DNA of 64,000 nucleotides from a virus (lineage: Duplodnaviria > Caudoviricetes), in the IMG/VR virus record IMGVR_UViG_2788500332_000006, positions 1 to 64,000 of that record; one strand, given 5' to 3'. Made by a program: the position numbers and the translations under genes. Below the pieces are notes generated by a model. That model did no database searches. It saw only the letters and a program-made list of their open reading frames with translations, and was not told the DNA's origin. Below are positions 31,269 through 45,502 of this stretch, one piece after another. Every line of letters begins with the position of its first letter. Positions within the stretch are counted from its first letter, which is position 1.

Positions 31269-31380
31269 CGCAAGGGGGCTCCGGGCCGAAAGGCTCGGAG
31301 CTTCCCTCAAGCTAGGCGTCTTCGGGCCGACGTGCAAGGCCCGCCCCCCGGCAATCATGCCACCTATGGAGACCTTCATC

Positions 31381-31950
31381 ATGGCTGCTTTCCCGATCCT
31401 CACCGGTTCCGCCCTCAAGTCCGCCATCGCCGGCCGCGCCAAGGCCGCCGCCAGCTTCACCGAACGCGAGCATCAGCTCGCCGCGTCGTGCCTCATGCAC
31501 GTCGAGCAGCATTCGTGCCCGTCGCACCTCAATGCGCTCTATCAGGCCACGCCGACCAACTATCGCGCCGGCCTGGTGTCGTGGTCCGTCGCGTTCGGTC
31601 GCGTCACCTTCGACAAGGACACCGGCGCGTTCGCCTACGCCAAGGGCAAGAAGACGGACGTGGATGGCATGCTCGCCGTCGCGCCGGCCAACTTCGAGAA
31701 GCAGAGCAAGACCACCCGCACCGAGAAGGAATTCGACGTCGCCGCCTACCTCGCGAAGGTGGTCGACACCCTCACGAACAAGGACGCCGACCCGCGCATC
31801 CTGCAGGCTGTCAAGGGCGCCCTGAACCTCGCCAAGATGCCGGCGCCGGCCAAGAAGGCGGAGAAGGCGGAGAAGCCCGCCAAGCCGGCTGCCGCCAAGG
31901 CGCCGAAGGTCGCCGATCAGGCCTCGGCTTCCGACCTGTTCGCCGCCTGA
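31381..31950 (+). CDS. Conserved phage early hypothetical protein with Lys/Ala-rich tail
   Basis: GGAG RBS, strongly biased codons, terminator 31971-31998. Confidence 0.85.
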   Translation: MAAFPILTGSALKSAIAGRAKAAASFTEREHQLAASCLMHVEQHSCPSHLNALYQATPTNYRAGLVSWSVAFGRVTFDKDTGAFAYAKGKKTDVDGMLAVAPANFEKQSKTTRTEKEFDVAAYLAKVVDTLTNKDADPRILQAVKGALNLAKMPAPAKKAEKAEKPAKPAAAKAPKVADQASASDLFAA

Positions 31951-32080
31951 TCACCGCCCCACGCAATCCAGCCGCTCCGGTCCGCCGGGGCGGCTTTCGT
32001 GTGTCCATGCAAGGGCGAGCTGGACTCGCCTTTCCACGGCCGCACGGCCGAACCCGCAATCATGCGAACGAGGTGACCCC

Positions 32081-32338
32081 ATGCGCGCGCTCATCGCCGC
32101 CCTTCTCATCGCCGGCGCGTCGCCGGCGCTTGCCGACGGCCCGGCCTTCTGGCTGGTCGATACCATCCCCGGCGCGGCGCCGACCATCGCCGTCGTCGAT
32201 GACTTCGAAGACGCGACCGCCTGCTATCAGGCCGCGATGGTCCGCCACGGGCCGGGCTTCGCCACCTGCGTCGCCCTCGACGAGTTTGCCGAGGTTGCCC
32301 TCTCTCACGCTGTGCTCCGCACCATGGGTGAGGAATGA
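32081..32338 (+). CDS. Secreted Cys-pair protein
   Basis: Signal peptide ending ASPALA; C-x14-C. Confidence 0.75.
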   Translation: MRALIAALLIAGASPALADGPAFWLVDTIPGAAPTIAVVDDFEDATACYQAAMVRHGPGFATCVALDEFAEVALSHAVLRTMGEE

Positions 32339-32541
32339 CCACGAGCGAGCCCGAGATTTTCGCGGTCATCTGGTGCGACTTCATCCCGCTCCATTTGCCT
32401 TTCGGAAGTGCTCCCGAGGCGGTCGCCTTCGCCAAAGAGATGGCCGCCCGCGCCGTCGTGGCCGGCGTCAATCTGGTCGGCCTTCGCGCCGTCCGCCTGC
32501 CGGAAGGCTCCGACGTACTTGAGACCCTTTGGGAGCCCTGA
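32335..32541 (+). CDS. Hypothetical protein
   Basis: ATGA coupling, GAGG RBS. Confidence 0.7.
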   Translation: MTTSEPEIFAVIWCDFIPLHLPFGSAPEAVAFAKEMAARAVVAGVNLVGLRAVRLPEGSDVLETLWEP

Positions 32542-32630
32542 CTTCCAGCCTAGCCGCCTCCGCCCGCCGGCGGCGGCTATACGGGCAATCAACCCGGCAC
32601 CCCCGCAACCATGCACCAGAGGAAACCATC

Positions 32631-32867
32631 ATGTCCGCCCTCACCCGGGCGCGCTCCTACACCGTGGGAACGCCCAACTTCGTAAGCCAGCGCGCCGCGC
32701 TGCGCTACTTCGCCACGCAGGGCCACGTCGACCCTTGGTCGGCCTTTACCGACGCGCTCGCCTCGGGCGCGATCGAGATCGGGCGGCCGTCGCTCGCTGA
32801 CCCGCGCGCCGTCGATTGCTACCCCGGTCGGGATGGCCGGTATCGCGTCGTCTACCTCGAGGACTAA
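32631..32867 (+). CDS. Hypothetical protein
   Basis: GAGG RBS preceded by the repeated hairpin motif. Confidence 0.75.
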   Translation: MSALTRARSYTVGTPNFVSQRAALRYFATQGHVDPWSAFTDALASGAIEIGRPSLADPRAVDCYPGRDGRYRVVYLED

Positions 32868-33142
32868 TGGCAATGACCATCCGGCTCGAAATCGCCGTCG
32901 CCTACAACTGCCGCCCCAAGAAGGGCGAATCCCGGCACACCGACGGCCGGCTTCTCAAGACATCGATCATCTTCGGCGAGTCGCTGGATGAGCTGCTTGC
33001 CGAGGGCCGCGCCGGTCGTGAGGCTGCCGAAAAATTCGCCCCTGGCTACACGGAGGTCATTTCCGTCCGCGCCTACGACAAGGCTGCCTTTCACGCCGAT
33101 CCGTTCGGCTGCCCGGCTCTTTTCGAGGCCGCGACCCTGTGA
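32867..33142 (+). CDS. Hypothetical protein
   Basis: TAATG coupling. Confidence 0.7.
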   Translation: MAMTIRLEIAVAYNCRPKKGESRHTDGRLLKTSIIFGESLDELLAEGRAGREAAEKFAPGYTEVISVRAYDKAAFHADPFGCPALFEAATL

Positions 33143-33190
33143 CCTTGGGGCTGGCTTCGGCCCGCTGCTGGTGCATCAGAGGGAAACACC

Positions 33191-33520
33191 ATGACCAAGA
33201 TCAAGATCGTCTGCAGCAAGTGCGGCGGGGATACCATCCTCCGCGATGCCTACGCCTATTGGGACGTTGAGGCGCAAGAGTGGGCGCTGTCCAGCGTCTA
33301 CGATGCTTTCCTCTGTTCAAGCTGCGGCCACGACGCATGCGACGAGGTACCGGCCGACGATGATAACGAGGCCTTTAGCCCAGAACAGACCGCGCGTGAA
33401 TATGGCTGGCTGCCTGATCCGTCCAGCACAACGCCTGGCGCGGTCTACAAGCGCGACCATGGCGAGACGTTTACCGCCTCCAGTTGGGCAGAAGCATGCG
33501 GCCTCGAATGCATCCGCTGA
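33191..33520 (+). CDS. Zinc-ribbon protein
   Basis: CSKCG...DAYA.WD...Q.W...CSSC; GAGGG RBS. Confidence 0.75.
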   Translation: MTKIKIVCSKCGGDTILRDAYAYWDVEAQEWALSSVYDAFLCSSCGHDACDEVPADDDNEAFSPEQTAREYGWLPDPSSTTPGAVYKRDHGETFTASSWAEACGLECIR

Positions 33521-33570
33521 CACGGCGGCCGGCTTCGGCCGGCCCCCTTCACCGCGCCGGAGAGATTGGG

Positions 33571-33810
33571 ATGCCTAAGAAACAAATCAGCCAAGAAGCT
33601 GCGCAGCTGATGCTCTCCACCCTACAGCGCATCCACGCAGTAGCGGTGTCCTTCGCGAACGATCCAAAAATCGAAAACCGCTCAGTGTGGCAGGCCTGTG
33701 CTGCCGAGGCAGCCGACGCCATCCATGCGGCGAGAGCTACTACCACACAGCGCCACCACACCGCGCGCCGGAGAGTCCGACGCGCCGCCAAGGAGAATGA
33801 TGATGGGTGA
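33571..33810 (+). CDS. Hypothetical protein
   Basis: GGAG RBS. Confidence 0.6.
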   Translation: MPKKQISQEAAQLMLSTLQRIHAVAVSFANDPKIENRSVWQACAAEAADAIHAARATTTQRHHTARRRVRRAAKENDDG

Positions 33811-34021
33811 CGAAAAACGATACCAGATCGCCGTTGGTGATGAAATCTATCGAGATGTGGTTAGGGCGCCGGATCGAGAACCGGGCGATTTTCTAACGCG
33901 ATCCGAGGCCGCTCAGCGAATTGTTGATGAGATGAACGGGGTGATCGAGATCGCCCGCATCACCCGTCGTCGCGCCATGCGGATCCTACGCGCCGAGACC
34001 AAAAAGAACAGCATCGCCTGA
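33797..34021 (+). CDS. Hypothetical protein
   Basis: AGGAG RBS, overlaps previous gene. Confidence 0.65.
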   Translation: MMMGDEKRYQIAVGDEIYRDVVRAPDREPGDFLTRSEAAQRIVDEMNGVIEIARITRRRAMRILRAETKKNSIA

Positions 34022-34108
34022 TGCTCCGGCCCGCCGACCGATGAGGCCGGCGACCCCGAGCGCCAATGCTCGATCACCCCGCAATTATGCACCAAGGAGA
34101 CCACCCCG

Positions 34109-34462
34109 ATGCGCCTTCCAGCGCTCGCGGCTTCTGCCGCCTTTCTCGCCCTCGCCGCCACCGTGCCGGCCCACGCCGACAGCTTCACGCTCGCCACGAT
34201 CTACGAAGATGCGTTTTTTGAGGGCGCACCGCTGTCGATCGACAACGCGGCGGCGATCGTCGCCACGGGCATGCCGGAACGCGCCTGCGTCCAGGCATCC
34301 CGCCTCGCCAACACCTATGGCGGGTTCACCGCCTGCATCCCCGTGCCGGACGGCATGACGCCCGAGTGCGCCAGAGCCCAAGCGGCTCCGACCGACAGCA
34401 ACCTCGAGTCCTGCTACGGCCCGGCGCTGCTCGCCGGCATGCGCGACGAATCCGAGAGGTGA
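34109..34462 (+). CDS. Secreted Cys-rich protein
   Basis: Signal peptide ending PAHA; four Cys; AGGAG RBS. Confidence 0.78.
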   Translation: MRLPALAASAAFLALAATVPAHADSFTLATIYEDAFFEGAPLSIDNAAAIVATGMPERACVQASRLANTYGGFTACIPVPDGMTPECARAQAAPTDSNLESCYGPALLAGMRDESER

Positions 34463-34722
34463 TCTCCCCTCACGTCTGGTCGCGCATCAACAAAAAATGG
34501 ATCGGCCTGTCTGGAAGAAAAGACGCCGCGGTGCGCGACACCCCCGACCCTCGCGGCCTGTTCATCTGGTCCTACGGAAACATCGCCGGCGCCGAGACAA
34601 CTATTCAGCGCGCCAAGGATTGGGTGGAAGCCCTCGCGGAGCACGAGGACATCCCGCCCGTCGACCGCTGGATCGACCCTTCCCGGTATCTCCGAGAGAC
34701 CTACGGCAACCGGCCGCGCTGA
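34459..34722 (+). CDS. Hypothetical protein
   Basis: GTGA coupling. Confidence 0.6.
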   Translation: MISPHVWSRINKKWIGLSGRKDAAVRDTPDPRGLFIWSYGNIAGAETTIQRAKDWVEALAEHEDIPPVDRWIDPSRYLRETYGNRPR

Positions 34723-34831
34723 ACATGGCGACGGCAGCTGTTCCCTGCATACCCGTGCCTTCGCCCCAAGCCCGGCCGCCCTCCTCCCGGTGGCCGGGCT
34801 CCCCGCACTCATGCGAACATGGAGACCTTCA

Positions 34832-35209
34832 ATGACCAACCAGCAGGGCGACACCCCGCGCCTCATCCCCAATGCTGTTTACATCAGCCTCTTCCACGGC
34901 CGCGACACAGTCGAGGAGGAGATGGAGGATTGGGGATACCAAGGGCCGATCATCGGCCCGTTCCGCTATGTGCAGATCACCTACATGGGCGACATCAAGT
35001 TCGCCATGGAGAAGGACGCGTTCAAGGCCGCCTTCCCCGACATCTACCAGAGCTGGGTGAGCGCCGGCTACTGCAACGCCGCAGGCGATTACGACATCAG
35101 CACCGGCGTGACGTGGATCGAGCACAGCATTCAGCCCACCGACGGCCTGTTCCCTTGGAAAGGCAAGTTTTACGGCGACTTCTCCGTCATCTCGTCTCCG
35201 GAGCGCTGA
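34832..35209 (+). CDS. Hypothetical protein
   Basis: Y..LFHGR...EEM.DWG..GP.IGP motif; GGAG RBS. Confidence 0.8.
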   Translation: MTNQQGDTPRLIPNAVYISLFHGRDTVEEEMEDWGYQGPIIGPFRYVQITYMGDIKFAMEKDAFKAAFPDIYQSWVSAGYCNAAGDYDISTGVTWIEHSIQPTDGLFPWKGKFYGDFSVISSPER

Positions 35210-35211
35210 CC

Positions 35212-35493
35212 ATGACCGCCCAACATAGCAAAGGGCCGTGGAAGCATCGGCCTATCTGCTCATCAGAAGGCGAGCTCATCCGCGACGAGATCGTGAACGA
35301 AGATGGCGAGATCATCGTCGATGACGTGCGCCGGCCGGAAGACGCGCCGGTGATCGCCACCGCGCCGGAGATGCTGGAGGCGCTGAGGGCTCTCGTTGAT
35401 TACGGGATCAACCTCAGAGGGAAGAGTCGGAGCTACGCCATCCTCCTGATGCGTGGCTTCGATGCCATCGCCAAAGCGGAGGGGCACCAATGA
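35212..35493 (+). CDS. Phage 'HTPGPW...IAAAPEMLEAL' family protein
   Basis: HSKGPW and IATAPEMLEAL motifs. Confidence 0.75.
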   Translation: MTAQHSKGPWKHRPICSSEGELIRDEIVNEDGEIIVDDVRRPEDAPVIATAPEMLEALRALVDYGINLRGKSRSYAILLMRGFDAIAKAEGHQ

Positions 35494-35687
35494 CCCGAAA
35501 GCGCATCACCCTAGCCGTCACCGTCACCATTCCTGAATGGATGACGAAGCGGCTGGCCGGCCGCGAGGTGCGAACCCTCATAAACGAGCAATGCAACTGG
35601 CTGTCGGGCGGCCCCTACGGTGAGCAAGTCGACGAGACAACCGTTCGCGCAGTAGCCGTGAAGCCGATGAAGAAGGAAGGACGGTGA
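35490..35687 (+). CDS. Hypothetical protein
   Basis: ATGA coupling. Confidence 0.7.
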   Translation: MTRKRITLAVTVTIPEWMTKRLAGREVRTLINEQCNWLSGGPYGEQVDETTVRAVAVKPMKKEGR

Positions 35688-36097
35688 CCATGGACTACAC
35701 GGCAGCAGCGGCCCGCTACGCGGCATCCCCGCAGTCGGCCTGCCCGATCCCCCAGTATGTGGAAGCCGTCTGGCAGGAGACATGGGGCCATCTTCAGCCG
35801 AAGGTTTGTGAGGTCTATTCGGGCTTCGTATTGTTCGGGTTCGGCATCCATGGCGACCACCTGCTGATCGATTGGGACTTCAAGCTGCCTGACGGCACGG
35901 AGCTCGACGGCAGCCCATGGCTCTTCGAGGACATGAGCGATCAGGTGTCGGACTGGATCGATCAGAAGGGTCACCGCAGCGGCGGCATCTGGCAGTTCGA
36001 CGGCACGTTTGAGCGCTTGAAGAATGGCAAGAGCCGGTGGCGGGGCAAAGTTCGCCCGATGCGTGCTGTCTATCGCTTCAAGGGGAAGCGGCCATGA
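35684..36097 (+). CDS. Hypothetical protein
   Basis: Coupled ORF. Confidence 0.7.
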   Translation: MTMDYTAAAARYAASPQSACPIPQYVEAVWQETWGHLQPKVCEVYSGFVLFGFGIHGDHLLIDWDFKLPDGTELDGSPWLFEDMSDQVSDWIDQKGHRSGGIWQFDGTFERLKNGKSRWRGKVRPMRAVYRFKGKRP

Positions 36098-36273
36098 GCG
36101 CAACGAAGAAAGCCCGCTCCAAACGCAAGGTGAAGCGGGCCGGCGCCAAGGCGCTGAGGTCCGCCAATCCCCCGAACACTTACCCCCGGCGGGATGGCGC
36201 GACGGCGCCGGCCACAGACCCCGCCTTCGAAACCAAGGGAGCCGATCATGCAGATCTTCACCGCCATTCTTGA
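36094..36273 (+). CDS. Small basic hypothetical protein
   Basis: ATGA coupling. Confidence 0.45.
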   Translation: MSATKKARSKRKVKRAGAKALRSANPPNTYPRRDGATAPATDPAFETKGADHADLHRHS

Positions 36274-36730
36274 GAGCTGGACCGTTCCGGGCCAACACGT
36301 CCAGTCCTTCGTCAAGCGCGAGGCCGCCGAAGCGTGGCTACGCGAGCAGTTCGCCGAATATCTACTTTCAGACCTACAGGAAGAACTGGAAGACGAGGAT
36401 AGCGGGGTCAATGAAATCGACGAATGGTCTCCTGGTGCGGTGGAGCGCGTACTCAACGGCACCGGCAATATGGTCGACTATGAGGAGGTCATCGAGTCCG
36501 TCAACCTCACAAAGTCCTGGAGCGGCTCGCTCACTATCCTCGAAAGTGAACTCGACATCTCCGCTGAGATCGCGGCCGAACGCGAGCGCATTGCCGCCTG
36601 CCTCGACGAGGAGGCCGGCCTTATCCCATGCACCGAAGACGCCATGGTCACCCGGAGCGACGCCCGGCTCGTGCGGGCGGATTTCAGCTACGAGGAAGCC
36701 GATCGATTGGCGGAAGCGGAGGAGCATTGA
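36248..36730 (+). CDS. Acidic hypothetical protein
   Basis: GGGAG RBS; very Glu/Asp-rich. Confidence 0.75.
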   Translation: MQIFTAILESWTVPGQHVQSFVKREAAEAWLREQFAEYLLSDLQEELEDEDSGVNEIDEWSPGAVERVLNGTGNMVDYEEVIESVNLTKSWSGSLTILESELDISAEIAAERERIAACLDEEAGLIPCTEDAMVTRSDARLVRADFSYEEADRLAEAEEH

Positions 36731-36732
36731 CC

Positions 36733-36918
36733 ATGTCCGAGAAAGACCACGTCGACCGCGACGATCTGATGGAGCGCACACGGGCGGCCGTTGCCTTCTG
36801 CAACACGACAAATGATCCCGGCGCGGACATGGTGGCCTTCATGGCCATCTTCCATCCCGAGGTCTCGGAAGATCGGGTCAGGCGAATGGCCCAGGCAGCG
36901 CGGGAGAACAAGCGATGA
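36733..36918 (+). CDS. Hypothetical protein
   Basis: GGAG RBS. Confidence 0.65.
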   Translation: MSEKDHVDRDDLMERTRAAVAFCNTTNDPGADMVAFMAIFHPEVSEDRVRRMAQAARENKR

Positions 36919-37202
36919 CCCTCGACGAAAAGCGCCATCTGATCAAGAAGGCCTTCGATTATCGCTCGGGCGTCGATAGCTGCGGCAGCGTCTACATGGG
37001 CAGCATGGCGAAGGCCGAGCTGTTCCGCCGCCTCGGCGGCAGTTTCGTTCGCGACAGCCTCGATGCTCTCCTGACCAAGGCGGACGATGCTCATTTGAGC
37101 AGCGCCCTCGCCTACTGCTCCGAAATTCTCGCCTACGCCGAGAAGCACCCCGTTCAAATCTGCCCCTGCTGTGGGCAGATCATTCCGGGGAAGCCCTCAT
37201 GA
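36915..37202 (+). CDS. Hypothetical protein with C-terminal CPCCG
   Basis: ATGA coupling. Confidence 0.7.
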   Translation: MTLDEKRHLIKKAFDYRSGVDSCGSVYMGSMAKAELFRRLGGSFVRDSLDALLTKADDAHLSSALAYCSEILAYAEKHPVQICPCCGQIIPGKPS

Positions 37203-37414
37203 CCACGTTCACGATCTTCCAGACCGCCGAGACCCGCGAACGCTACACGGTCAACGCGGAGAGCTTCGAGGAAGCACTTCGCCTGCATTTCGACGGCTGC
37301 TCGACGTTCAAGGGAAACGAGACTCTGTCAACCGAAGATATCCAACTCGTCAACCTGGAGACCGGTGAGAGCAAGAGGGAGACCGACATCACCATCAGCG
37401 AAGAGGACGCCTGA
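37199..37414 (+). CDS. Hypothetical protein
   Basis: ATGA coupling; Y.V.AES.EEA motif. Confidence 0.7.
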   Translation: MTTFTIFQTAETRERYTVNAESFEEALRLHFDGCSTFKGNETLSTEDIQLVNLETGESKRETDITISEEDA

Positions 37415-37416
37415 TC

Positions 37417-38582: not shown

Positions 38583-38653
38583 TCGAGTGGCCCGCTACGG
38601 CGGGCCTCTCACTTTCCACCCCCCGCAATTATGCACCCATGGAGAGCAAAATC

Positions 38654-39559
38654 ATGAATGCCCTCACCCCGATTCTGTCCGCCTCCTCCACCCTCGCCAC
38701 CCGCGCGATGATCGTCTCCTTGCGCATCTCGCAATGGTCCGGCCGGCGGCTCGACCGCGAGGTCACCAAGGAGGTGAACGACCAGCACGGTGCCGCCTCG
38801 GACGCCGGCCGCTACAACAAGCTGCTGCTGCCGAAGGAAGCCCTCGAGGATATCGAGCGGATCGTCAGCGAAACCCGCAACGAATTCCTCAAGCGCACGC
38901 TGCCGTGGATGCAGGACGGTAGCCGCATTATGGCCGCCGACGCCTACCTCTCCCATATGGCCTGGCTCCGATCGCAGTCGGCAAAGTTCGACGCGGCCGT
39001 CGACCAGTTCATTGCCCAGTATCCCGGCTATGTCGCTGCCGCCGCTGCTCGCCTCAATGGCATGTTCAAGGCGGCTGACTATCCCGAGGCGGAAGAGCTG
39101 CGCGCCAAGTTTGCGATGGAGTGCAAGGTTCTCCCGGTCCCGACCTCGGACGACTTCCGTGTCGCCATCTCCGACGCACAGGCCGAGCGCATCCGCTCCG
39201 ATATCGAACAGCAGGTCGGCGAGGCGACGCGCGCCGCCGTGCGCAACATCTTCGAGCGCATCGCCGAACTGGCGGAGCGCATGGTCAACCGCCTCAACGC
39301 CTACAAGCCCGCCACCAAGCCCGGCGAGCGGTCGGAAGGTGTCTTCCGGGACTCGCTGGTCGAGAACGTCCGCGACTTGATTGCCGTGCTGCCTGCGCTC
39401 GACATCACCGGCGATCCGCGCCTCGCCGACCTGGCGGAGCGGATGAAGGTGCTCGCCGAGCACGATGCCAGCGTGCTCCGCGAAGACGCCGGCAAGCGCC
39501 GCGACGTTGCCAACGAGGCGCAGGCCATCCTCGACCAGATCGGCGATTTCCTTGCGTGA
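38654..39559 (+). CDS. DUF3150-like phage protein
   Basis: AM.VSL.IS.WSGRRLD, AGRYNK.LL, TLPW...G.R, YP...EL..KF, FRDSLVEN. Confidence 0.75.
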   Translation: MNALTPILSASSTLATRAMIVSLRISQWSGRRLDREVTKEVNDQHGAASDAGRYNKLLLPKEALEDIERIVSETRNEFLKRTLPWMQDGSRIMAADAYLSHMAWLRSQSAKFDAAVDQFIAQYPGYVAAAAARLNGMFKAADYPEAEELRAKFAMECKVLPVPTSDDFRVAISDAQAERIRSDIEQQVGEATRAAVRNIFERIAELAERMVNRLNAYKPATKPGERSEGVFRDSLVENVRDLIAVLPALDITGDPRLADLAERMKVLAEHDASVLREDAGKRRDVANEAQAILDQIGDFLA

Positions 39560-39572
39560 AGGAGGCGGGCCG

Positions 39573-39983
39573 GTGGCAACGCCGCCCCGAACCACCGTGG
39601 CAACGTTCCTCCTCATCCCCGTCATCGGGGAGATACAGCCCTACTACGCCCCGCTGCTCGGCGTGGCGTTCAACTCCATCTCGCAGGCGATCACCCGGTT
39701 CTTCGACGAGCCGTTCGAGCATGTGTTTGTCCTCTATGGCGGGCACCCGCGCGACATGTTCGTCGGCGAGACGTCGTCCATCAACGGGCGGCATATCCGC
39801 AATGTCAGGGCCACCGACATCTACCGCGCCAACTTTGTGCATTCCCAATACCATCACGTCTCTTGGATGCCCGGCGAAATTCTGATGCCAGACTTCAGAT
39901 ACACCAGGCGGGAAATCCTTGAATCCGCGCCGGCGATCTGTGGCCCTGCCGTGCTGTTTCCCGATACCATCGTTTGGCGCTAA
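39573..39983 (+). CDS. Hypothetical protein (DUF3846-like)
   Basis: AGGAGG RBS with GTG start; DMFV.E, N.RAT.IY, I.GPAV. Confidence 0.6.
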   Translation: MATPPRTTVATFLLIPVIGEIQPYYAPLLGVAFNSISQAITRFFDEPFEHVFVLYGGHPRDMFVGETSSINGRHIRNVRATDIYRANFVHSQYHHVSWMPGEILMPDFRYTRREILESAPAICGPAVLFPDTIVWR

Positions 39984-40025
39984 CCCGCCTCACCCCCGCA
40001 AGTATGCGAACCATGGAGATCCATC

Positions 40026-41012
40026 ATGAACCTGCAGACCGCAGCGCAGGCGCTCAACGCCTTTCTCGACGCCGACATCCCCGTCATGATGTGGGGCCCG
40101 CCCGGTGTCGGCAAGTCGTCCATCGGCAGGGACATCGTGGCCGAACGGAACTGGGGTCTGGTCGACTTCCGCGCCTCCACCCGCGATCCGGTCGCCCTCA
40201 TGGGCCTGCCCGACCTCACCGCCGACACCACCAAGTGGAAGGTTCCCGACGAGTTCCCGCAGCCCGACCGCGACGGTGCCGAAGGCATCCTGTTCCTCGA
40301 CGAGATCAACGCCGCCGCGCCCTCGATGCAGGCCGCCATGTTCGGGCTGGTGCTCGATCGCCGCGTTGGCGATTACCAGCTCCCGCCGGGCTGGCGCGTC
40401 GTGGCCGCCGGCAACCGCCAGTCCGACCGTGCCGCCGCGCAGCGCATGCCGTCGGCGCTCGCAAACCGGTTCGCGCACATCGATGTCGACCCGGATGTCG
40501 ACACTACCGTTCACCACTTCAACAAGATCGGAGTCGACCCGATCGTCGTCGCCTTCCTGCGCTGGCGGCCGGCCCTGTTGCTCGACATGAAGAATGATCA
40601 GCTCCGCGCGTTCCCGACGCCGCGGGCGTGGGAGCAGGTCGGCAAGGTCGTCCAGCAGCCGTCTCCGCTGCGGCTGGCTCTCATTGCCGGCGTCGTCGGC
40701 GACGGCGCCGCCGCCGAGCTCGAGGGCTTCATCCGCGTCTACCAAGGACTGCCGTCGCTCGATCTGGTGCTGAGCAATCCGAGCGGCGCCAAGGTGCCCG
40801 AGGACTCGTCGGCGCGCTTCGCCATAAGCTCGGGCCTCGCCCGCAAGGTGACCGACAAGACCATCGGCAACGCCATGATCTACATGCAGCGCCTGCCCCG
40901 AGAGTTCGAGATCCTGTTCATGACGGACGCCGTTCGGCGCGACAGCAAGCTCTCGCACACGCAGGCCTTCGTCGACTGGACGGTTCGGAATCAGGACGTG
41001 GTGTTCGGATGA
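40026..41012 (+). CDS. MoxR-like AAA+ ATPase
   Basis: Walker A GPPGVGKS, Walker B ILFLDE, AAGN, ALANRF, FPTPR.W. Confidence 0.93.
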   Translation: MNLQTAAQALNAFLDADIPVMMWGPPGVGKSSIGRDIVAERNWGLVDFRASTRDPVALMGLPDLTADTTKWKVPDEFPQPDRDGAEGILFLDEINAAAPSMQAAMFGLVLDRRVGDYQLPPGWRVVAAGNRQSDRAAAQRMPSALANRFAHIDVDPDVDTTVHHFNKIGVDPIVVAFLRWRPALLLDMKNDQLRAFPTPRAWEQVGKVVQQPSPLRLALIAGVVGDGAAAELEGFIRVYQGLPSLDLVLSNPSGAKVPEDSSARFAISSGLARKVTDKTIGNAMIYMQRLPREFEILFMTDAVRRDSKLSHTQAFVDWTVRNQDVVFG

Positions 41013-41356
41013 GCGTCGCCATCGTTTGGATCGCCGGCCCGATCGGTTACGCAAAGACGCTTGTCGAGGGCGGCCAGTCATTCCGCTGGTCCTTCATCGC
41101 CGGCGACGGCCTCGGCTGTATCCGGCGGTACACCCTGGCATTCGAGACGAAGACCCGGGAGTTCCGGGTCATCGCGCCAGATCGCAACGGCTGGGAGCAG
41201 GCGCATGCCGACCTGCTAACCAACCTGTATCGGCCGATCTCCATCCTCCGGTCCGACCTGCCGAAAGGGAAGATCCTCGACGCCCTGCGCGGGATGCTCA
41301 CCGATCGCGACCTTTCGATAGTGTCCGCGGCCTCCCTCCTGAGAGCAGCATCATGA
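41009..41356 (+). CDS. Tandem paralogue 1 (unknown function)
   Basis: ATGA-coupled to the ATPase; shares motifs with the next four genes. Confidence 0.8.
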   Translation: MSVAIVWIAGPIGYAKTLVEGGQSFRWSFIAGDGLGCIRRYTLAFETKTREFRVIAPDRNGWEQAHADLLTNLYRPISILRSDLPKGKILDALRGMLTDRDLSIVSAASLLRAAS

Positions 41357-41688
41357 GACAAGTCATCGATATCGACCGGCGCGGATCATACCGAGGCTAT
41401 TCGGCTCTCAACTTCGTCTTCGTCGTCACTTTCATCAACGGAGATTCCGCTGAATACGCGCTCCTTTACGATGCTGAGGAGCGAAATTTCCGTGCGGAAA
41501 AACAGGGCCACCGTCCCAAAGATCGAATCCGCTTGGCATGGTTGAAACGCCAGGGGAAGCAGCCCTTCACGATCAAGGTTCGGTTGGCAGACCACCTCAA
41601 GACCCTCCTGACTCGAGAGGAGATGGCAGCATGCGCGGCGATGTCTCTGGAGGGGCCAAAAAGGAATTCAAGATGGCCGAGATTCTGA
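41353..41688 (+). CDS. Tandem paralogue 2
   Basis: ATGA coupling; shared motifs. Confidence 0.8.
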   Translation: MRQVIDIDRRGSYRGYSALNFVFVVTFINGDSAEYALLYDAEERNFRAEKQGHRPKDRIRLAWLKRQGKQPFTIKVRLADHLKTLLTREEMAACAAMSLEGPKRNSRWPRF

Positions 41689-41984
41689 AAATCGAAGGGC
41701 CGGTCAGCCGCGAGGATGAATGGGGCTCGACCATCTTCGAGTTCCACGTCACCTACGAAAGCGGGCGTGTCCTCCGGTGGCTGCTGGAGTTCAGCCACAA
41801 CAATCGGACGTTCTCAACCCGGCCAGCCGGTTCACCCGATCTCCCATCGGTCTTCCCCAAGATGCTGCTCGCCTTGGGCTATCGACCGATAGATATCCGG
41901 TCCGGCGGTCTTCGCAACCACTTGCGCAGCATGCTTTCCCCCGAGGACATCGCCATTTGCGCGCAGGCCTCGCTCAGGAGGTGA
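41673..41984 (+). CDS. Tandem paralogue 3
   Basis: AAGGA RBS; shared motifs. Confidence 0.8.
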   Translation: MAEILKIEGPVSREDEWGSTIFEFHVTYESGRVLRWLLEFSHNNRTFSTRPAGSPDLPSVFPKMLLALGYRPIDIRSGGLRNHLRSMLSPEDIAICAQASLRR

Positions 41985-41987
41985 ACC

Positions 41988-42329
41988 ATGCCGAGGATCA
42001 AAGCCGTCTGGGGGCCGAGAAAAACGGAGGAAGGTCGCGCCCGGATCACTTGGTGGTTCTCCGGCATGAAAGAGGATGGAGAACTTTGCGAGTGGAAGCT
42101 GGTCTACTTCGCCGACACCCGCCGGTTCACCTGTCGCCGCGTCATGTCCATGGTCGCAAAGGAACGGGCTGGAAAACTTGAGAGAAAGGATCTCTTCCGG
42201 ATTCCGTCGGCCAACGGCGATGCGATCGAAGAGGGCTTCGTCACCGATATCCTGAAGAAGCGTCTCACCCCGGAGCATTTGGCCAAATGCGCCAAACTCT
42301 CCCTGACTTATGGGAGGGCACATGGCTGA
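41988..42329 (+). CDS. Tandem paralogue 4
   Basis: AGGAGGT RBS; shared motifs. Confidence 0.8.
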   Translation: MPRIKAVWGPRKTEEGRARITWWFSGMKEDGELCEWKLVYFADTRRFTCRRVMSMVAKERAGKLERKDLFRIPSANGDAIEEGFVTDILKKRLTPEHLAKCAKLSLTYGRAHG

Positions 42330-42687
42330 CTTCCGCAAAGTGCTGGGGCCGTTCGGCCGGGAGGTCGTGAAGGTCGGCGACGTGCGCATCACGTGGGGCT
42401 TCATCGGCATCCTCGCCGACTATGAGACGGCCCACTGGACGCTGACCTATCAGGCGGAGCATCGAAACTTCTATGTCCGCAGGAGTGAACAAGTGTCTCT
42501 ACGCGTGCGCGACGAAAGTGGCCTGATCCACTATCGCGCGGCCGGCCTCCCTATCCACCTGGACATGTTCATCAAGAGCGACAACCGCATTGTCGCGAGC
42601 GGGACCATCACCAACGTGCTCCGCTCCCGGCTCTCGCCGGAAGACATCGCGCTCTGCGCCCGACTTTCCATGAAGGGAACATCATGA
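42322..42687 (+). CDS. Tandem paralogue 5
   Basis: GGAGG RBS; shared motifs; coupled to the peptidase-vWA gene. Confidence 0.8.
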   Translation: MADFRKVLGPFGREVVKVGDVRITWGFIGILADYETAHWTLTYQAEHRNFYVRRSEQVSLRVRDESGLIHYRAAGLPIHLDMFIKSDNRIVASGTITNVLRSRLSPEDIALCARLSMKGTS

Positions 42688-43847
42688 TGATCGCCGAGGA
42701 CAAGATACTCGCCGCCCGCACGGCTCTCATGTGGGACCACCCGTTCTTCGGGGCACTCGCTGTCCGGCTCACCACCATCGACGCGACCGATGACCCGCGC
42801 ATCGACACGATGGCAACCGACGGCCGTAACCTGTTCTTCGACCGGAAGTTCGTCGACGGGTTGAAGAAGCCGGAGCTGGTGTTCGTGCTGGCCCACGAGG
42901 TCATGCACAACGCGCTCGAGCACCACATCCGCCGGCAGACACGCGATCCACGGCGCTGGAACAAGGCATGCGACTACGCCATCAATGGCGAGCTCGCCGA
43001 TACCAAGATCGGGACCATGCCGAAGGGCGGCCTCATCGATCCCGCCTACACCGGCCTCTCGGCGGAAGAAATCTATCGCCTTCTGCCGGAAGAGAATGGC
43101 GGCGGCGCGGATGGTGGGCAAGGCGGACAGGACCCGGGCGGGTGCGGCGCCGTGCTCGACGCGGCGCCGGCGCATGATGAGGCCGCCCTCGCAGAGGCCC
43201 GCGCGGAGATGCAGACGGCCGTCAGGCAGGCGGCGAACATAGCCAAGGCCGCCAATGCCGGCAGCCTGCCGGCGGGCATCCAGCGCCTCGTGGACGAGCT
43301 TCTGAAGCCGAAGGTGGACTGGCGGTCGGTGCTGCGCCGCTTCGTCGACGAGTCCACCACACGCGACTTCGCCTGGTCCCGGCCTAACCGCCGGCTGGTG
43401 CCGCATGGGGTGATCACCCCCGGCACAGTCTCCATCGGCGTCTCGCATATCGTGATCGCCGTCGACACCTCCGGCTCGATCGACGCCGAGATCCTCCGCG
43501 CCTTCGCTGCCGAGATCAACGGCGCCTTCTGCGAGGGCGCGGTGGACCGCATCACCGTGATCTATGCCGACGCCGCGGTTCAGCATGTCGAGGAGTTCGA
43601 GACCGGCGACGAGCTCATGCTCCATCCGGCCGGCGGCGGCGGCACCGCCTTCTCCGATACCTTCCGCAGGATCGAGCGGGACTATCCCGGCGCCCGCGCC
43701 TGCATCTATCTGACCGACCTCTTCGTCAGCGACTTCGGCCGGGAGCCATCCATGCCCGTCTTGTGGGGCGTCTACGGCGACCCGCGCGCCTTCGACCACC
43801 TCGCCGCCACTGTGCCGTTCGGAGAGCCGATCAGCATCGCTCCCTGA
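42684..43847 (+). CDS. Zinc metallopeptidase-like + vWA protein (DUF2201 family)
   Basis: PFFG, TMATDG, HEVMH, N.ACDYAIN, VDWR..L, MIDAS DTSGS, GGGGT, LTD. Confidence 0.92.
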   Translation: MMIAEDKILAARTALMWDHPFFGALAVRLTTIDATDDPRIDTMATDGRNLFFDRKFVDGLKKPELVFVLAHEVMHNALEHHIRRQTRDPRRWNKACDYAINGELADTKIGTMPKGGLIDPAYTGLSAEEIYRLLPEENGGGADGGQGGQDPGGCGAVLDAAPAHDEAALAEARAEMQTAVRQAANIAKAANAGSLPAGIQRLVDELLKPKVDWRSVLRRFVDESTTRDFAWSRPNRRLVPHGVITPGTVSIGVSHIVIAVDTSGSIDAEILRAFAAEINGAFCEGAVDRITVIYADAAVQHVEEFETGDELMLHPAGGGGTAFSDTFRRIERDYPGARACIYLTDLFVSDFGREPSMPVLWGVYGDPRAFDHLAATVPFGEPISIAP

Positions 43848-43889
43848 CCACACCACCAATCGCCGCTCATGGCACCAAGGAGACCTCAC

Positions 43890-44285
43890 ATGTCCGCGAT
43901 CCTGACCAAGCTGGAATTCGACGCCTTTCTCGAAGAGAACCGGCAGGCACCTTCCCTCGAAATCGCCGAACCGACCTGGCGCGAGGCCGGCCCCGATCAC
44001 GCCCCGCGCGCCAAGCTCAAAGGCATCTGGACTATCGGCGGTCTGAGCCTGCACGTGGTGGCTCTTGAATGCCGGCTCGTGGCCCCGAGCGACTTCGATG
44101 AGGAAACCGGCGATGCCAAAACGCTGCCTTGGGACGCCCCGGGCGGCCTGATCGATTTCGCCCTCGGCGTTGAGGGCTTCGACATCGGAGAGCTCTGGTC
44201 CGCCCATGGCATGGAGGGCCACGCCGAGACCGCCATCATCGACGGCCGGCATTACCTGATCTTCGCCTCGCCCTTCTGCACCTAA
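43890..44285 (+). CDS. Hypothetical protein
   Basis: AGGAG RBS with hairpin motif. Confidence 0.8.
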   Translation: MSAILTKLEFDAFLEENRQAPSLEIAEPTWREAGPDHAPRAKLKGIWTIGGLSLHVVALECRLVAPSDFDEETGDAKTLPWDAPGGLIDFALGVEGFDIGELWSAHGMEGHAETAIIDGRHYLIFASPFCT

Positions 44286-44349
44286 CGCCATCTTCACGGC
44301 CACGACGTTCCGCCCTATCCTCCGGCCGACAACTTGGCTGGAGAGCAAC

Positions 44350-44697
44350 ATGTTCAAGCGTTCACTCTTCCTTGGCATAGCGCTGGCGATGACAGTGGGA
44401 TCGTCGGTCGCAGCTGATGATCCAGTTTTCGAGTTTGACTGGCTGGCGATATTCCGAACCGCCAACAAGTTTTGCGTTGGACAGAACTTCTCGGCAGAAG
44501 GCATCGACTTGCGCATGAAGCAGATTGGTAGGCGCCTCGGCTGGTCCCCGCAAAAACTCGCCGACGAAACTCTGTCTCGTGAGATCACCACTGAGATTGA
44601 CTTGCGCGTTAGTCAAACAGCCTTTTGCAACACTGCGAGAATGGGACGTCGGCAATACGGTGACGACTATCTCCGAAGAGTAGGCGTCATCTACTGA
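44350..44697 (+). CDS. Secreted hypothetical protein (lower GC)
   Basis: Signal peptide, two Cys, GGAG RBS. Confidence 0.75.
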   Translation: MFKRSLFLGIALAMTVGSSVAADDPVFEFDWLAIFRTANKFCVGQNFSAEGIDLRMKQIGRRLGWSPQKLADETLSREITTEIDLRVSQTAFCNTARMGRRQYGDDYLRRVGVIY

Positions 44698-44810
44698 ACC
44701 AAGAGCGATCGGCGTGATCTTCCCATTTCCCTAGCAGCACAACATCTCCAGGCCGGGCCACGCAGCCCGGCCTTTTCTTTTCCCCCAATCATGGGCTCAT
44801 GGAGACCGCG

Positions 44811-45008
44811 ATGCACAAGCACATCGTCGAGGTGAGGCTGCGCCTTGCCGTCTATGCCAACTCCATCGGTCAAGCTGTCGACCAGGCTTCCAGACACATC
44901 AAAGTCCGTTCCAGCGCCACCGTCCATCGGGATGGCGATGTGCAGATCGTTGCCTGGGAACCCCAGGGAGGTTCCGGCACGCAAACAACCGACAGGGGGC
45001 AGGCATGA
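44811..45008 (+). CDS. Hypothetical protein
   Basis: GGAG RBS with hairpin motif. Confidence 0.6.
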   Translation: MHKHIVEVRLRLAVYANSIGQAVDQASRHIKVRSSATVHRDGDVQIVAWEPQGGSGTQTTDRGQA

Positions 45009-45502
45009 GATTCACGAGGAAGCAGCGCTACGGCCCCTACGAGGACACGTCGCGCAAGCGGGCGGCTCTCGCCAGGAAGCAAAGGCTCGAGCGCGAAAGG
45101 CTGCCGCTGCTGGCCGAGATGATCGCCGAGCAGCAGCCCGATGCGGACACCGTGATGGCGGAGCGGGCGGTGAAGTGGACCATTTGGGAGCAGGAGACAC
45201 GTGACAGAAGGGCCGCGAACTGGCGACGCGCCCGCGCCCAGCTATTCGCCTATGGAGACAACATCCGGCGAACGCTCACCCGCCTGTGGAACTCCGCACC
45301 GTACCCGGCCACGCCGGAATACCTGCTCGACATGCTCCACCAGTTCGACCGCGGCAACCTCGACCCTGATAACCCGCCCTGGGTTTACCGAGGCCCCGGC
45401 CTGAAGACCGTCGACTTCACCGACATAGTCAACCGAGCGCGCGCCCGCCAAGGGCTGCCGCCTCTCGACGCCCCCGCCACTCATGGCACCAATGGAGACT
45501 GA
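45005..45502 (+). CDS. Conserved phage/plasmid hypothetical protein
   Basis: TSRKRAA..RKQR.ER..LPL.A..IAE.QP, WRRAR, YP..P.YLLDML. Confidence 0.75.
   Translation: MRFTRKQRYGPYEDTSRKRAALARKQRLERERLPLLAEMIAEQQPDADTVMAERAVKWTIWEQETRDRRAANWRRARAQLFAYGDNIRRTLTRLWNSAPYPATPEYLLDMLHQFDRGNLDPDNPPWVYRGPGLKTVDFTDIVNRARARQGLPPLDAPATHGTNGD

What the first reader, a model, noticed from the sequence alone, without database searches (positions are those of the whole stretch)
31350..45487. Ten covarying tetraloop mini-hairpins placed just before Shine-Dalgarno sites across the accessory island
Seen, usually after a C-run and a few nt before GGAG/GAGG: GGCA-ATCA-TGCC (31350), CGCA-ATCA-TGCG (32055), GCA-ACCA-TGC (32605), GCA-ATTA-TGC (34081), CGCA-CTCA-TGCG (34804), GCA-ATTA-TGC (38625), CGCA-AGTA-TGCG (39997), GCCG-CTCA-TGGC (43862, G-U pair), CCCA-ATCA-TGGG (44784), GCCA-CTCA-TGGC (45476). 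The stems change compensatorily while the loop stays MNYA. The invariant ATG lies 19-24 nt before the true start and is in frame in only some cases. I found no conserved -35. Established: ANYA-loop hairpins are the RNA operators of MS2-type coat proteins. Inference: a post-transcriptional regulon (translational operator or processing/stability signal), or a hairpin-type promoter. The repeats might also mark gene-cassette boundaries that aid shuffling.
Basis: partly seen in the sequence, partly recalled or inferred. Interest (0 to 1): 0.78.

Follow-up and report, generated by a model that had tools for sequence, protein, structure and literature searches.

The report
Covarying mini-hairpin heading phage early-gene cassettes
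A family of temperate phages of Rhizobiales-type bacteria puts the same tiny, base-pair-covarying hairpin five bases in front of the ribosome-binding site of 10-17 early genes per genome; it is a real, apparently undescribed control element, most likely read in the messenger RNA by an unidentified phage factor.

Summary
Observation confirmed and extended. All ten sites are real. A weight-matrix scan of the 96,978-bp record gives 13 clean copies: the ten, plus 56148-56159 (-) and two beyond the window (66446, 71576). All are co-oriented with a gene.

Consensus: mmCCC-SSCA-AYYA-TGSS-Ammaa, then the SD 5.3+/-1.5 nt later and the start codon.

The 4-bp stem covaries, both among 76 sites and between orthologous sites of related phages. 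C3-G10, A8, T9 and the two preceding C never change. The flanks are A/C-only.

Five syntenic IMG/VR relatives (52-62% GC) carry about 9-17 copies each, almost all on one strand in one island of about 15 kb. In four host genomes every strong hit lies in one contig neighbourhood, mostly within 10-20 kb, with a few weaker hits up to about 25 kb further. No copy precedes late genes.

There is no -35, Rfam family, phage RNA polymerase, sigma, NusG or levivirus coat.

Best reading (about 0.45): an RNA hairpin built into the translation-initiation region of cassette-head genes, acting as operator for an unidentified phage factor. Rivals: unusual promoter (many sites follow strong hairpins or terminators, like T4 PeSLs), nut/ops-like site, processing or stability signal. 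The MS2 analogy fails membership. Closest analogue: the unexplained SAS/ESAS motifs of Cluster K mycobacteriophages. Another first-stage reader noted the same motif on this genome.

The parts
31350..31361 (+). 12-mer hairpin GGCAATCATGCC. SD GGAG starts 6 nt later. It heads gene 31381-31950, a conserved phrog_1448 protein with a K/A/P-rich tail.
32055..32066 (+). 12-mer hairpin CGCAATCATGCG. It heads genes 32081-32338 and 32335-32541.
32604..32615 (+). 12-mer CGCAACCATGCA (pair 1/12 is C.A). It heads 32631-32867. A degenerate look-alike, CGGGCAATCAACCCG, lies just upstream at 32582-32596.
34080..34091 (+). 12-mer CGCAATTATGCA. It heads 34109-34462, which has a signal-peptide-like N-terminus.
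34804..34815 (+). 12-mer CGCACTCATGCG. It heads 34832-35209 and a run of about 12 tightly packed genes.
38624..38635 (+). 12-mer CGCAATTATGCA. It heads the conserved 301-aa DUF3150-like gene 38654-39559.
39997..40008 (+). 12-mer CGCAAGTATGCG. It heads the MoxR-like AAA+ gene 40026-41012 and the block up to the vWA-metallopeptidase gene 42684-43847.
43862..43873 (+). 12-mer GCCGCTCATGGC (stem swapped to GC/GC; pair 4/9 is G.T). It lies 15 nt after the stop of 42684-43847 and heads 43890-44285.
44784..44795 (+). 12-mer CCCAATCATGGG, directly behind a canonical intrinsic terminator. It heads 44811-45008.
45476..45487 (+). 12-mer GCCACTCATGGC, embedded in the 3' end of gene 45005-45502. It heads the conserved 514-aa methyltransferase-like gene 45504-47048 (GTG start).
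56148..56159 (-). It is in the leftward early (replication) operon and heads gene 55793-56131.
44750..44773 (+). Canonical intrinsic terminator (9-bp G+C stem, then TTTCTTTT) ending 10 nt before the 44784 copy. The same terminator-motif junction recurs in relatives G002, G003 and G005.
30150..30200 (+). Sigma-70-like early promoter (TTGTGA ... TATTAG) overlapped by the palindrome TTGTACGCTATGTACAA (30179-30195). It is the presumed operator-controlled start of island transcription. The first genes behind it lack the motif.

Best explanation
The element is a cis-acting RNA hairpin that forms part of the translation-initiation region of the first gene of each early or accessory cassette. The mRNA carries, in order: a 5' flank rich in A and C that ends in CC; a 4-bp stem whose two outer pairs need only to pair; a loop and two inner pairs of fixed sequence (C-A / A-Y-Y-A / U-G); an A/C-rich linker of about 5 nt; a strong SD; and the start codon. 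I infer that a sequence- and structure-specific factor, most likely encoded by the phage, binds the hairpin with its CC and A flanks. Bound right at the 5' edge of the ribosome-binding site, it would set translation of the whole set of 10-17 cassette-head genes together. The most likely direction is shut-off of early proteins, as T4 RegA does, or as ThrRS does by steric exclusion at its own operator. Control of mRNA stability is a possible variant.

Shown: the motif itself, its covariation, its spacing, its distribution and its restriction to the phage family. Inferred: that it acts as RNA, that a protein reads it, and the direction of control.
For: 1. Covariation indicates base pairing rather than recognition of a DNA palindrome. 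Pair 2/11 is G-C 60, C-G 14, U-A 2 with no mismatch. Pair 1/12 is C-G 37, G-C 18, U-A 4. Orthologous sites in front of the same gene in six phages swap stems, for example CGCA/TGCA, CTCA/TGAG and GCCA/TGGC before the DUF3150-like gene. The loop is asymmetric (A5 and A8 are not complementary), which does not fit a homodimer site.
2. Inner pairs, loop and flanks are base-specific: C3, A8, T9, G10 and C-1 are invariant. This is the usual pattern for hairpins bound by proteins.
3. Spacing to the SD is as tight as SD-to-start spacing: 5.3+/-1.5 nt against 10.9+/-1.4 nt, n=66. A promoter or a nut site would not need this.
4. Both flanks are A/C-only on the sense strand. G counts are 0, 0, 0 at -3..-1 and 0, 2, 0 at +13..+15, of 79 sites. 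A and C cannot pair with each other, so this keeps an mRNA single-stranded. In partition-function folds of 112-nt native contexts the central pairs form with P of about 0.72 and the flanks are 75-85% unpaired.
5. All copies are co-oriented with the downstream gene.
6. The motif marks genes that need their own ribosome entry: 9/16 genes with a gap against 1/21 packed genes.
7. It is not a host signal. In four host genomes of 4.3-5.6 Mb every hit >=22.8 bits lies in one contig neighbourhood, mostly within 10-20 kb, with a few weaker hits up to about 25 kb further. This points to a phage-encoded reader or a self-contained RNA function.
8. Sites with C at position 5 or G at position 4 are conserved orthologues. 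That argues against a sigma-70-type -10 element, which needs A at -11.
Against: - No reader protein was identified.
- No expression or 5'-end data could be obtained.
- The isolated hairpin is only marginally stable, about -3 kcal/mol.
- There are no G.U pairs at the two covarying positions (0 of 135 paired cells), while C.A occurs in 17 of 76 sites at pair 1/12. This is not the classic RNA signature. The A at position 12 can also be read as the first base of the A/C-rich 3' tail.
- 65% of sites lie 2-21 nt behind a strong hairpin, and several lie behind textbook terminators. The element would then be present only in read-through transcripts. The same layout is that of composite terminator/promoter cassettes (T4 PeSLs, PMC4122927).
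- At least one good copy, in a Hoeflea prophage, sits about 68 nt before its SD.
Confidence: 0.45

Rival explanations
1. The element is a phage-specific promoter, a -10-proximal element with no -35, placed behind the terminator-like hairpin of the preceding cassette. Each cassette would then be its own transcription unit. Host RNA polymerase redirected by an unrecognised phage factor would read it, and the stem symmetry would reflect a structure in the melted non-template or template strand.
For: - 65% of sites follow a strong hairpin (dG <= -10 kcal/mol) ending 2-21 nt upstream, against 28% of random windows (p=3e-7).
- Canonical terminators abut the motif at window 44750-44773 and at orthologous junctions in G002, G003 and G005.
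- The layout is the same as the terminator/promoter PeSL cassettes of T4-like hyperplastic regions (PMC4122927).
- AATCAT is the only A+T patch in a 64% G+C context and has A and T where -11 and -7 would fall.
- One copy has a 68-nt leader.
- The first genes of the operons, which have ordinary promoters, lack the motif.
Against: - No RNA polymerase, sigma-70 r2 or convincing r4 domain was found in six-frame searches or in about 70 proteins scanned.
- Nothing is conserved upstream.
- Conserved variants have C where -11 A would be.
- Covariation has no precedent in promoters of multisubunit polymerases.
- A 12-bp palindrome is too short to extrude from duplex DNA (general knowledge).
- The predicted start would fall on or 1-2 nt before the SD, and the tight SD spacing has no rationale for a promoter.
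- Strong copies are absent from host chromosomes outside the prophage neighbourhood.
Confidence: 0.22
2. The element is a loading site for a processive antitermination or elongation factor. It would be read either as an RNA hairpin (lambda N/boxB-like nut site) or as a 12-nt hairpin in the exposed non-template strand of a paused polymerase (ops/RfaH-like). Re-arming the polymerase at every cassette would let it pass the many internal terminator-like hairpins.
For: - The island is a 17.5-kb operon behind one operator-controlled promoter and contains many strong hairpins and at least one textbook terminator.
- The element is 12 nt long, strictly co-oriented with transcription, and is a small hairpin with sequence-specific loop and flanks. 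From my own knowledge, this is the same size and logic as ops.
- Small N-like proteins evolve too fast for family libraries to detect.
Against: - No NusG/RfaH-like domain was found in the record.
- With 13 copies instead of one or two per operon, the copy number does not fit.
- The fixed 5-nt distance to the SD and the association with genes needing their own ribosome entry are unexplained.
- The loop is not GNRA-like, and there is no boxA-like partner beyond CC.
Confidence: 0.12
3. The element is an RNA processing or stability signal. The polycistronic early RNA would be cut in the A/C-rich linker between the strong 3' hairpin of one cassette and the mini-hairpin of the next. That would leave each cassette mRNA with a protective 3' hairpin and a 5' hairpin next to its SD.
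For: - The architecture is strong hairpin, short A/C linker, mini-hairpin, SD.
- Several upstream hairpins carry RNA-type UUCG or GNRA loops.
- Analogy from my own knowledge: RNase III sites between phage T7 early genes.
Against: - A purely structural 5' cap would not need an invariant loop and invariant inner pairs.
- No nuclease candidate was found beyond a generic HNH gene.
- C-rich linkers are not typical RNase E sites (general knowledge).
- Where the upstream gene ends 15-22 nt before the motif there is no 3' hairpin.
Confidence: 0.12
4. The element is a duplex-DNA site for a phage DNA-binding protein, acting as a roadblock like the stoperators of mycobacteriophage L5, or it is merely a recombination hot spot for cassette shuffling with no regulatory role.
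For: - There are many co-oriented intergenic copies, as with stoperators (general knowledge).
- The motif marks boundaries between conserved and variable cassettes, and 32 of 74 motif-led genes are singletons among six phages.
- Recombination at repeated boundaries is plausible as a by-product.
Against: - Covarying outer pairs and an asymmetric centre do not fit a dimer site.
- The motif differs from the repressor palindrome at 30179.
- The fixed SD spacing and the strand-specific A/C flanks are unexplained.
- Shuffling alone would not hold five positions invariant in relatives spanning 52-62% G+C plus this 64% record.
Confidence: 0.06

Closest known systems
Start-associated sequences (SAS) and extended SAS of Cluster K mycobacteriophages (Pope et al. 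2011, PMC3203893)
   Same: - A phage-cluster-specific short motif placed immediately before the start of 11-19 genes per genome.
- One orientation only.
- Restricted to the non-structural half of the genome.
- Kept before the same gene families across related phages.
- Essentially absent from the host genome.
- Function still unknown, with translation initiation suspected.
   Different: - The SAS contains the SD itself and is not a hairpin.
- The ESAS inverted repeats are 17 bp and, according to the authors, do not covary, so they proposed DNA binding.
- Here the element is separate from the SD, is 12 nt long and shows clear compensatory changes.
- Host phylum and sequence are unrelated.
PeSL composite terminator/promoter cassettes of T4-like phages (Arbiol et al. 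2010, PMC2839356; Comeau et al. 2014, PMC4122927)
   Same: A repeated small regulatory module at the boundaries of small, variable early genes in a hyperplastic region. A stem-loop is followed by the signal that heads the next gene. Such modules are likely to favour cassette shuffling.
   Different: The PeSL promoter is an ordinary sigma-70 early promoter. Here there is no -35/-10 consensus, the conserved part is itself a covarying mini-hairpin, and it is locked to the SD.
Translational operator hairpins: MS2 coat/replicase operator, T4 gp43 operator, E. coli thrS operator; and the T4 RegA regulon (my own knowledge)
   Same: A small hairpin with a sequence-specific loop at or next to the ribosome-binding site. 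The loop fits ANYA, as in the MS2 operator. Many early messages are controlled together, as by RegA.
   Different: MS2 needs a bulged purine and overlaps the start codon. The gp43 and thrS operators are single autoregulatory sites. RegA sites are not hairpins. No homologue of any of these proteins was found.
N4 virion-RNA-polymerase hairpin promoters, lambda nut (boxA/boxB) and the ops/RfaH element (my own knowledge)
   Same: Nucleic-acid hairpins read by the transcription machinery. They are orientation-specific and lie in early regions. ops is also 12 nt long.
   Different: The N4 promoter has a 5-7-bp stem, a 3-nt loop, three copies and needs a polymerase of about 3,500 aa. nut has a GNRA-like pentaloop plus boxA and two copies. 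ops has one copy per operon and needs a NusG paralogue. None of these features or proteins is present here.

Membership tests
MS2-type coat-protein RNA operator | 4-nt loop of form ANYA | tested here: met
   The loop, positions 5-8, is A (70/79; C 8), N, Y (77/79), A (79/79).
MS2-type coat-protein RNA operator | Unpaired (bulged) purine two pairs below the loop, in a stem of about 7 bp | tested here: not met
   The stem is 4 contiguous pairs with no bulge in any of 76 sites.
MS2-type coat-protein RNA operator | Operator includes the start codon of the regulated gene; a levivirus coat protein is present | tested here: not met
   The hairpin ends 12-22 nt before the start codon. A six-frame search for Levi_coat PF01819 in the record found nothing at E<=1. 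That search's control rang in only one genome, so this is weak on its own.
N4-type hairpin promoter | 5-7-bp stem with 3-nt loop, purine at the centre | tested here: not met
   4-bp stem and 4-nt loop in all sites.
N4-type hairpin promoter | Giant virion RNA polymerase gene in the genome | tested here: not met
   The longest ORF seen in the window is 906 aa and in the record 1228 aa. PF00940 found nothing, but its control also rang nowhere, so that search is uninformative.
lambda-type nut site | boxB hairpin with GNRA-like pentaloop plus boxA upstream; one site per early operon | tested here: not met
   The loop is AYYA with 4 nt. The only conserved upstream bases are CC. There are 13 copies.
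ops / RfaH recruitment element | NusG paralogue encoded or available; single copy in the operon leader | tested here: not met
   No NusG N-terminal domain in the record at E<=1, with the control ringing in 11 of 14 genomes. The island has 10 copies. Host NusG paralogues were not examined.
Sigma-70-family promoter | -35 and -10 hexamers at 16-18 bp, with A at -11 and T at -7 | tested here: not met
   There is no conservation from -60 to -9. The consensus scan finds no + strand promoter at the sites. Conserved variants have C at the would-be -11.
SAS/ESAS of Cluster K mycobacteriophages | 13-bp GGGATAGGAGCCC containing the SD, 3-7 bp before the start codon | tested here: not met
   The sequence is different and the element lies upstream of the SD. 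It resembles SAS in behaviour, not in sequence.
Any Rfam family | Match at the gathering score | tested here: not met
   No family matched in the 64-kb window at gathering score. Only two unrelated sub-threshold hits appeared in 30100-35000 at E<=1.

The most novel reading that the evidence does not exclude
The hairpin is a structure-specific transcription signal for the host multisubunit RNA polymerase. It would be a promoter or polymerase-loading site read as a 12-nt hairpin in a melted strand with the help of a small unknown phage protein. That would be a hairpin promoter class working without an N4-type virion polymerase, reiterated before every early cassette.
Probability: 0.15. Interest if true: 0.85.

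Novelty: new variant of a known kind. Interest (0 to 1): 0.62.

Why it matters
Phage early 'accessory' islands hold most of the unknown takeover and anti-defence genes, and how they are switched on and off together is largely unknown outside T4, T7 and lambda. This is a compact, statistically solid, family-wide signal heading 10-17 such cassettes per genome. It offers a handle for three things:

- finding the regulator, for example by pull-down with a 23-nt RNA or DNA;
- defining the early regulon of a widespread group of Rhizobiales prophages;
- testing whether start-associated motifs, unexplained since 2011 in mycobacteriophages, are a general phage strategy.

The minimal hairpin with A/C-only flanks could also serve as a small orthogonal control part. 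The covariance model built here can annotate the element in metagenomes.

Tried and rejected
- Upstream mini-ORF from the invariant ATG: rejected. The frame and the stop position differ from site to site (in frame at 31350 and 34804, a 4-codon ORF at 32055, long overlaps at 32604 and 34080).
- Pairing of the motif with 16S rRNA as a translational enhancer: no complementarity beyond 7 nt with G.U to the 16S of Brucella pecoris, which is chance level.
- Host regulon or host sigma promoter: rejected. Strong hits in four host genomes lie only in one contig neighbourhood each. Only the best 150 first-look candidates per genome were scored.
- Rfam: nothing.
- Literature search for the core string found only primers. 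Searches for a description in Rhizobiales phages found nothing relevant.
- Aurantimonas phage AmM-1 is the nearest cultured relative by a tail protein. It lacks the motif.
- Looking for a reader: Pfam, PHROGs and NCBIfam scans of about 70 proteins, and six-frame searches for NusG, sigma r2, sigma r4_2, phage RNA polymerase and Levi_coat, gave no polymerase, sigma, NusG or known RNA-binding family.
- The ESM Atlas gave only unnamed viral clusters for the two best candidates.
- AlphaFold models of the phrog_1448 protein (pLDDT 73.5) and the DUF3150-like protein (pLDDT 76.9) found no convincing fold match. Foldseek gave E>0.3, VIA gave Z<=5.3, and a profile search against PDB sequences returned only designed repeats.
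- Homology between the two structured early leaders: none.
- Strand of pairing from wobble statistics: inconclusive. C.A at pair 1/12 would be T.G on the template strand, but G.T at pair 4/9 points the other way.

Full report
**What the window is**

The window is the first 64 kb of a 96,978-bp provirus record with 64% G+C.

- Bases 1-29 kb (minus strand) encode a myovirus-type virion: tape measure, sheath, portal, head-protease fusion and large terminase.
- Bases 30.2-47.8 kb (plus strand) are an island of about 38 mostly unknown small genes. It starts behind a sigma-70-like promoter that overlaps the palindrome TTGTACGCTATGTACAA at 30179.
- Bases 47.7-56.7 kb (minus strand) hold replication genes: DnaB-type helicase, primase and methyltransferases.
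- A LexA/S24-type repressor gene lies at 57162-57899.
- Bases 58.5-73.1 kb (plus strand) hold recombination genes and end with an integrase.
- Bases 73-97 kb look like a second prophage (tail protein, endolysin). They share a 1.4-kb block at 86% identity with 1499-2888.
- The nearest cultured relative, by a tail-region protein, is Aurantimonas phage AmM-1 at 43% identity.

**Checking the observation**

All ten sites are present. Aligned on the 12-mer they read S-S-C-R-M-N-Y-A-T-G-S-S. A C-run precedes them, and an A/C-rich linker, GGAG-type SD and start codon follow.

A weight matrix over positions -8 to +16, scanned over both strands of the whole record, gives 13 sites scoring 16.9-29.1. The next best hit scores 12.1. 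The three extra sites are 56148-56159 (minus strand), 66446 and 71576.

Every site is co-oriented with a gene whose start codon lies 26-31 nt after the first base of the 12-mer. None lies in the virion operon or in the second prophage. The probability that all 13 fall in 29-73 kb by chance is 3e-5.

**The motif defines a phage family**

An exact-pattern scan of IMG/VR returned 25 loci. Many of them carry 4-13 further copies each.

I fetched five whole relatives, G001-G005 (33-78 kb, 52-62% G+C). They are syntenic with this phage in the virion genes and in the island core: the phrog_1448 gene, the DUF3150-like gene, MoxR ATPase, vWA-metallopeptidase and the methyltransferase-like gene.

A covariance model of the element (R1) finds 10-17 matches at E<=1 in each relative. 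Nearly all are on one strand within one stretch of about 15 kb. A stricter weight-matrix filter that also requires pairing keeps 9-15 per relative.

A scan of one genome per prokaryote species returned mostly chance single hits. Multi-copy loci appeared only in Hyphomicrobiales: Hoeflea, Ancylobacter, Peteryoungia and Brucella (formerly Ochrobactrum) pecoris. In these four genomes every hit of 22.8 bits or more lies in one contig neighbourhood, mostly within 10-20 kb. A few weaker hits lie up to about 25 kb further, and the rest of each chromosome gives only noise-level scores. AmM-1 has no copy.

**Anatomy, from 79 pooled sites**

- Nothing is conserved from -60 to -9, so there is no -35.
- Positions -5 to -1 are A/C only, and -2 and -1 are C (90% and 100%).
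- C3, A8, T9 and G10 are invariant. A4 is 91% (otherwise G) and A5 is 89%.
- Position 6 is mostly T. Position 7 is C or T.
- Positions +13 to +17 are again A/C-rich with almost no G.
- The SD anchor lies 5.3+/-1.5 nt after the 12-mer. The start codon lies 10.9+/-1.4 nt after the anchor (n=66).

**Pairing**

On 76 distinct sites, 94.4% of cells in the four proposed pairs are standard pairs, against 77.5+/-1.4% after shuffling. 38 cells show changes on both sides, against 8.4+/-2.4. No shuffle in 500 reaches either value, and sliding the partner by 1-3 columns destroys the signal.

- Pair 2/11: G-C 60, C-G 14, U-A 2, never mismatched.
- Pair 1/12: C-G 37, G-C 18, U-A 4, C.A 17.
- Pair 3/10: always C-G.
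- Pair 4/9: A-U 70, G.U 6.

These are not just frozen paralogues. In front of the same gene family, different phages have different but paired stems. Before the DUF3150-like gene they are CGCA/TGCA, CTCA/TGAG, GCCA/TGGC, GCCG/TGGC and CGCA/TGCG. Before the phrog_1448 gene they are GGCA/TGCC and CGCA/TGCG.

**Context**

In the island, 9 of 16 genes with at least 20 nt of upstream spacer carry the motif. Only 1 of 21 overlapping or abutting genes does (Fisher p=7e-4). So it heads cassettes.

65% of sites in six genomes lie 2-21 nt behind a hairpin of dG <= -10 kcal/mol, against 28% of random windows (p=3e-7). A few of these are textbook terminators with U tracts, for example window 44750-44773 and its orthologues. 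Where the upstream gene ends 15-22 nt before the motif (43862, 56159, 66446), or overlaps it (45476), there is no such hairpin.

**How it most likely works**

Covariation with an asymmetric loop argues for a folded single strand, not a duplex site for a dimer.

Five things place the functional form in the mRNA, as part of the ribosome-binding region:
- the strict co-orientation;
- the A/C-only flanks on the sense strand, a composition that cannot self-pair;
- the predicted formation of the hairpin in native context (P about 0.72, flanks unpaired);
- the spacing to the SD, which is as tight as the SD-to-start spacing;
- the association with genes that need independent ribosome entry.

The inner pairs, loop and flanking CC and A are invariant while the outer pairs merely pair. 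That is the signature of a hairpin read by a specific partner.

Strong copies are absent from host chromosomes outside the prophage neighbourhood, and the loop does not pair with 16S rRNA. The partner is therefore probably phage-encoded.

A factor bound 5 nt upstream of the SD would be placed to exclude, or possibly to recruit, the 30S subunit on 10-17 messages at once. That would be a post-transcriptional early regulon. I put this at about 0.45. The motif, covariation, spacing and distribution are shown. The RNA level, the protein reader and the sign of the effect are inferred.

**Rivals**

A promoter (about 0.22) is suggested by the hairpin/terminator-then-motif layout. This resembles the composite terminator/promoter PeSLs of T4-like phages (PMC4122927). 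One copy with a 68-nt leader also fits. Against it:
- I found no phage polymerase or sigma (and the family scans).
- There is no upstream element.
- Conserved variants lack the would-be -11 A.
- A promoter gives no reason for the locked SD distance.

The other rivals are a nut- or ops-like polymerase-modifying site (about 0.12), a processing or stability signal (about 0.12) and a duplex-DNA or recombination-only role (about 0.06). Their arguments are set out in the rival explanations.

**Comparison with known systems**

The MS2 analogy holds only for the ANYA-like loop. The bulged purine, the overlap with the start codon and a coat protein are all missing. N4 hairpin promoters, lambda nut and ops each fail defining features (see membership test).

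The closest behavioural analogue is the SAS/ESAS system of Cluster K mycobacteriophages. That system has 11-19 copies per genome, one orientation, sits directly before starts of non-structural genes, is conserved by gene family and is absent from the host. Its function is still unknown (PMC3203893). There, however, the motif contains the SD, and the associated inverted repeats do not covary.

I found no Rfam family and no publication describing the present element. My literature search covered only the open-access library.

**Reader candidates**

The genes that keep the motif in all relatives are 31381-31950, 38654-39559, the MoxR gene, and 45504-47048.

- 31381-31950 (phrog_1448): four invariant His/Ser positions and a Lys/Ala/Pro-rich tail.
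- 38654-39559 (DUF3150-like): 53-68% identical among relatives.

Models of the first two reached pLDDT 73-77 but matched no known fold convincingly.

**Verdict**

The element is real, non-random, covarying and specific to a phage family. It sits at the head of early cassettes. It is most likely an RNA operator hairpin in the translation-initiation region, and the mechanism is unproven. It is a new variant of the 'start-associated motif / operator regulon' kind. Another first-stage reader of this scan noted the same leader motif on this genome (e1-5842521).

Noticed in passing
window 56181-56660 (-): This is the first sizeable gene of the leftward early operon and is conserved in relatives at 39-71%. 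It has a sub-threshold match of its C-terminal residues 105-143 to the ribosome modulation factor family (PF04957, E=9e-4, 19.6 bits against a cut-off of 27.9). An RMF/CrpP-like domain in a phage early protein next to a translation-linked motif may be worth a look.
   Followed up: partly
window 1499-2888 versus record 73371-74760; window 12869-13429 versus record 75342-75908: The record holds two prophage-like regions that share diverged blocks: 1.39 kb at 86% identity and 0.57 kb at 76%. The integrase gene at record 71789-73147 separates the two regions. The motif occurs only in the first region.
   Followed up: partly
window 40026-41012: The best phage homologues of the island's MoxR-like ATPase, at 31-36% identity, include several N4-like podoviruses (Vibrio VBP47, Erwinia phiEaP8, Pseudomonas Zuri). 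Other top hits are cyanophages, Burkholderia and Acinetobacter phages of about 75 kb, Thermus phage phiFa and Bacillus phage G. No close relative of this myovirus is among them.
   Followed up: no
window 30200-30720 and 57898-58350: Both rightward early transcripts begin with 350-500 nt lacking a credible ORF. Other first-stage readers noted the same. The two leaders are not similar to each other. Only the second is conserved at the DNA level, and only in one relative (G005, 71% over 352 nt). No Rfam match reached the gathering score.
   Followed up: partly
window 32582-32596: A degenerate look-alike of the motif, CGGGCAATCAACCCG (GGG/CCC stem, CAATCAA loop), lies 8 nt upstream of the true copy at 32604.
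   Followed up: no
window 57160-57172: The start of the repressor gene (ACATGATTGCTTCG) contains the reverse complement of the motif core, GCAATCATG. A 9-nt match is about what chance gives in this record, so it is probably nothing.
   Followed up: no
window 33191-34021: Three island genes with a visibly lower third-position G+C lack the motif, although they have 48-52-nt upstream gaps. One of them has a zinc-ribbon-like CxxC pair. They look like a more recent insertion into the island.
   Followed up: no
window 54181-54762 (-): This 193-aa protein is 71-80% identical in three relatives (23% in a fourth, G001) yet has no Pfam or PHROG hit. Its N-terminus (FVFDPGRTMGFAY) looks like a RuvC-type resolvase motif, judged by eye only.
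   Followed up: no
L052 (Hoeflea sp. contig PANK01000015.1), about 2687 on the reverse strand: One high-scoring copy (25 bits) sits about 68 nt, not about 5 nt, before its SD, with a structured insert in between. It is a natural 'spacing mutant' that could be informative in experiments.
   Followed up: partly
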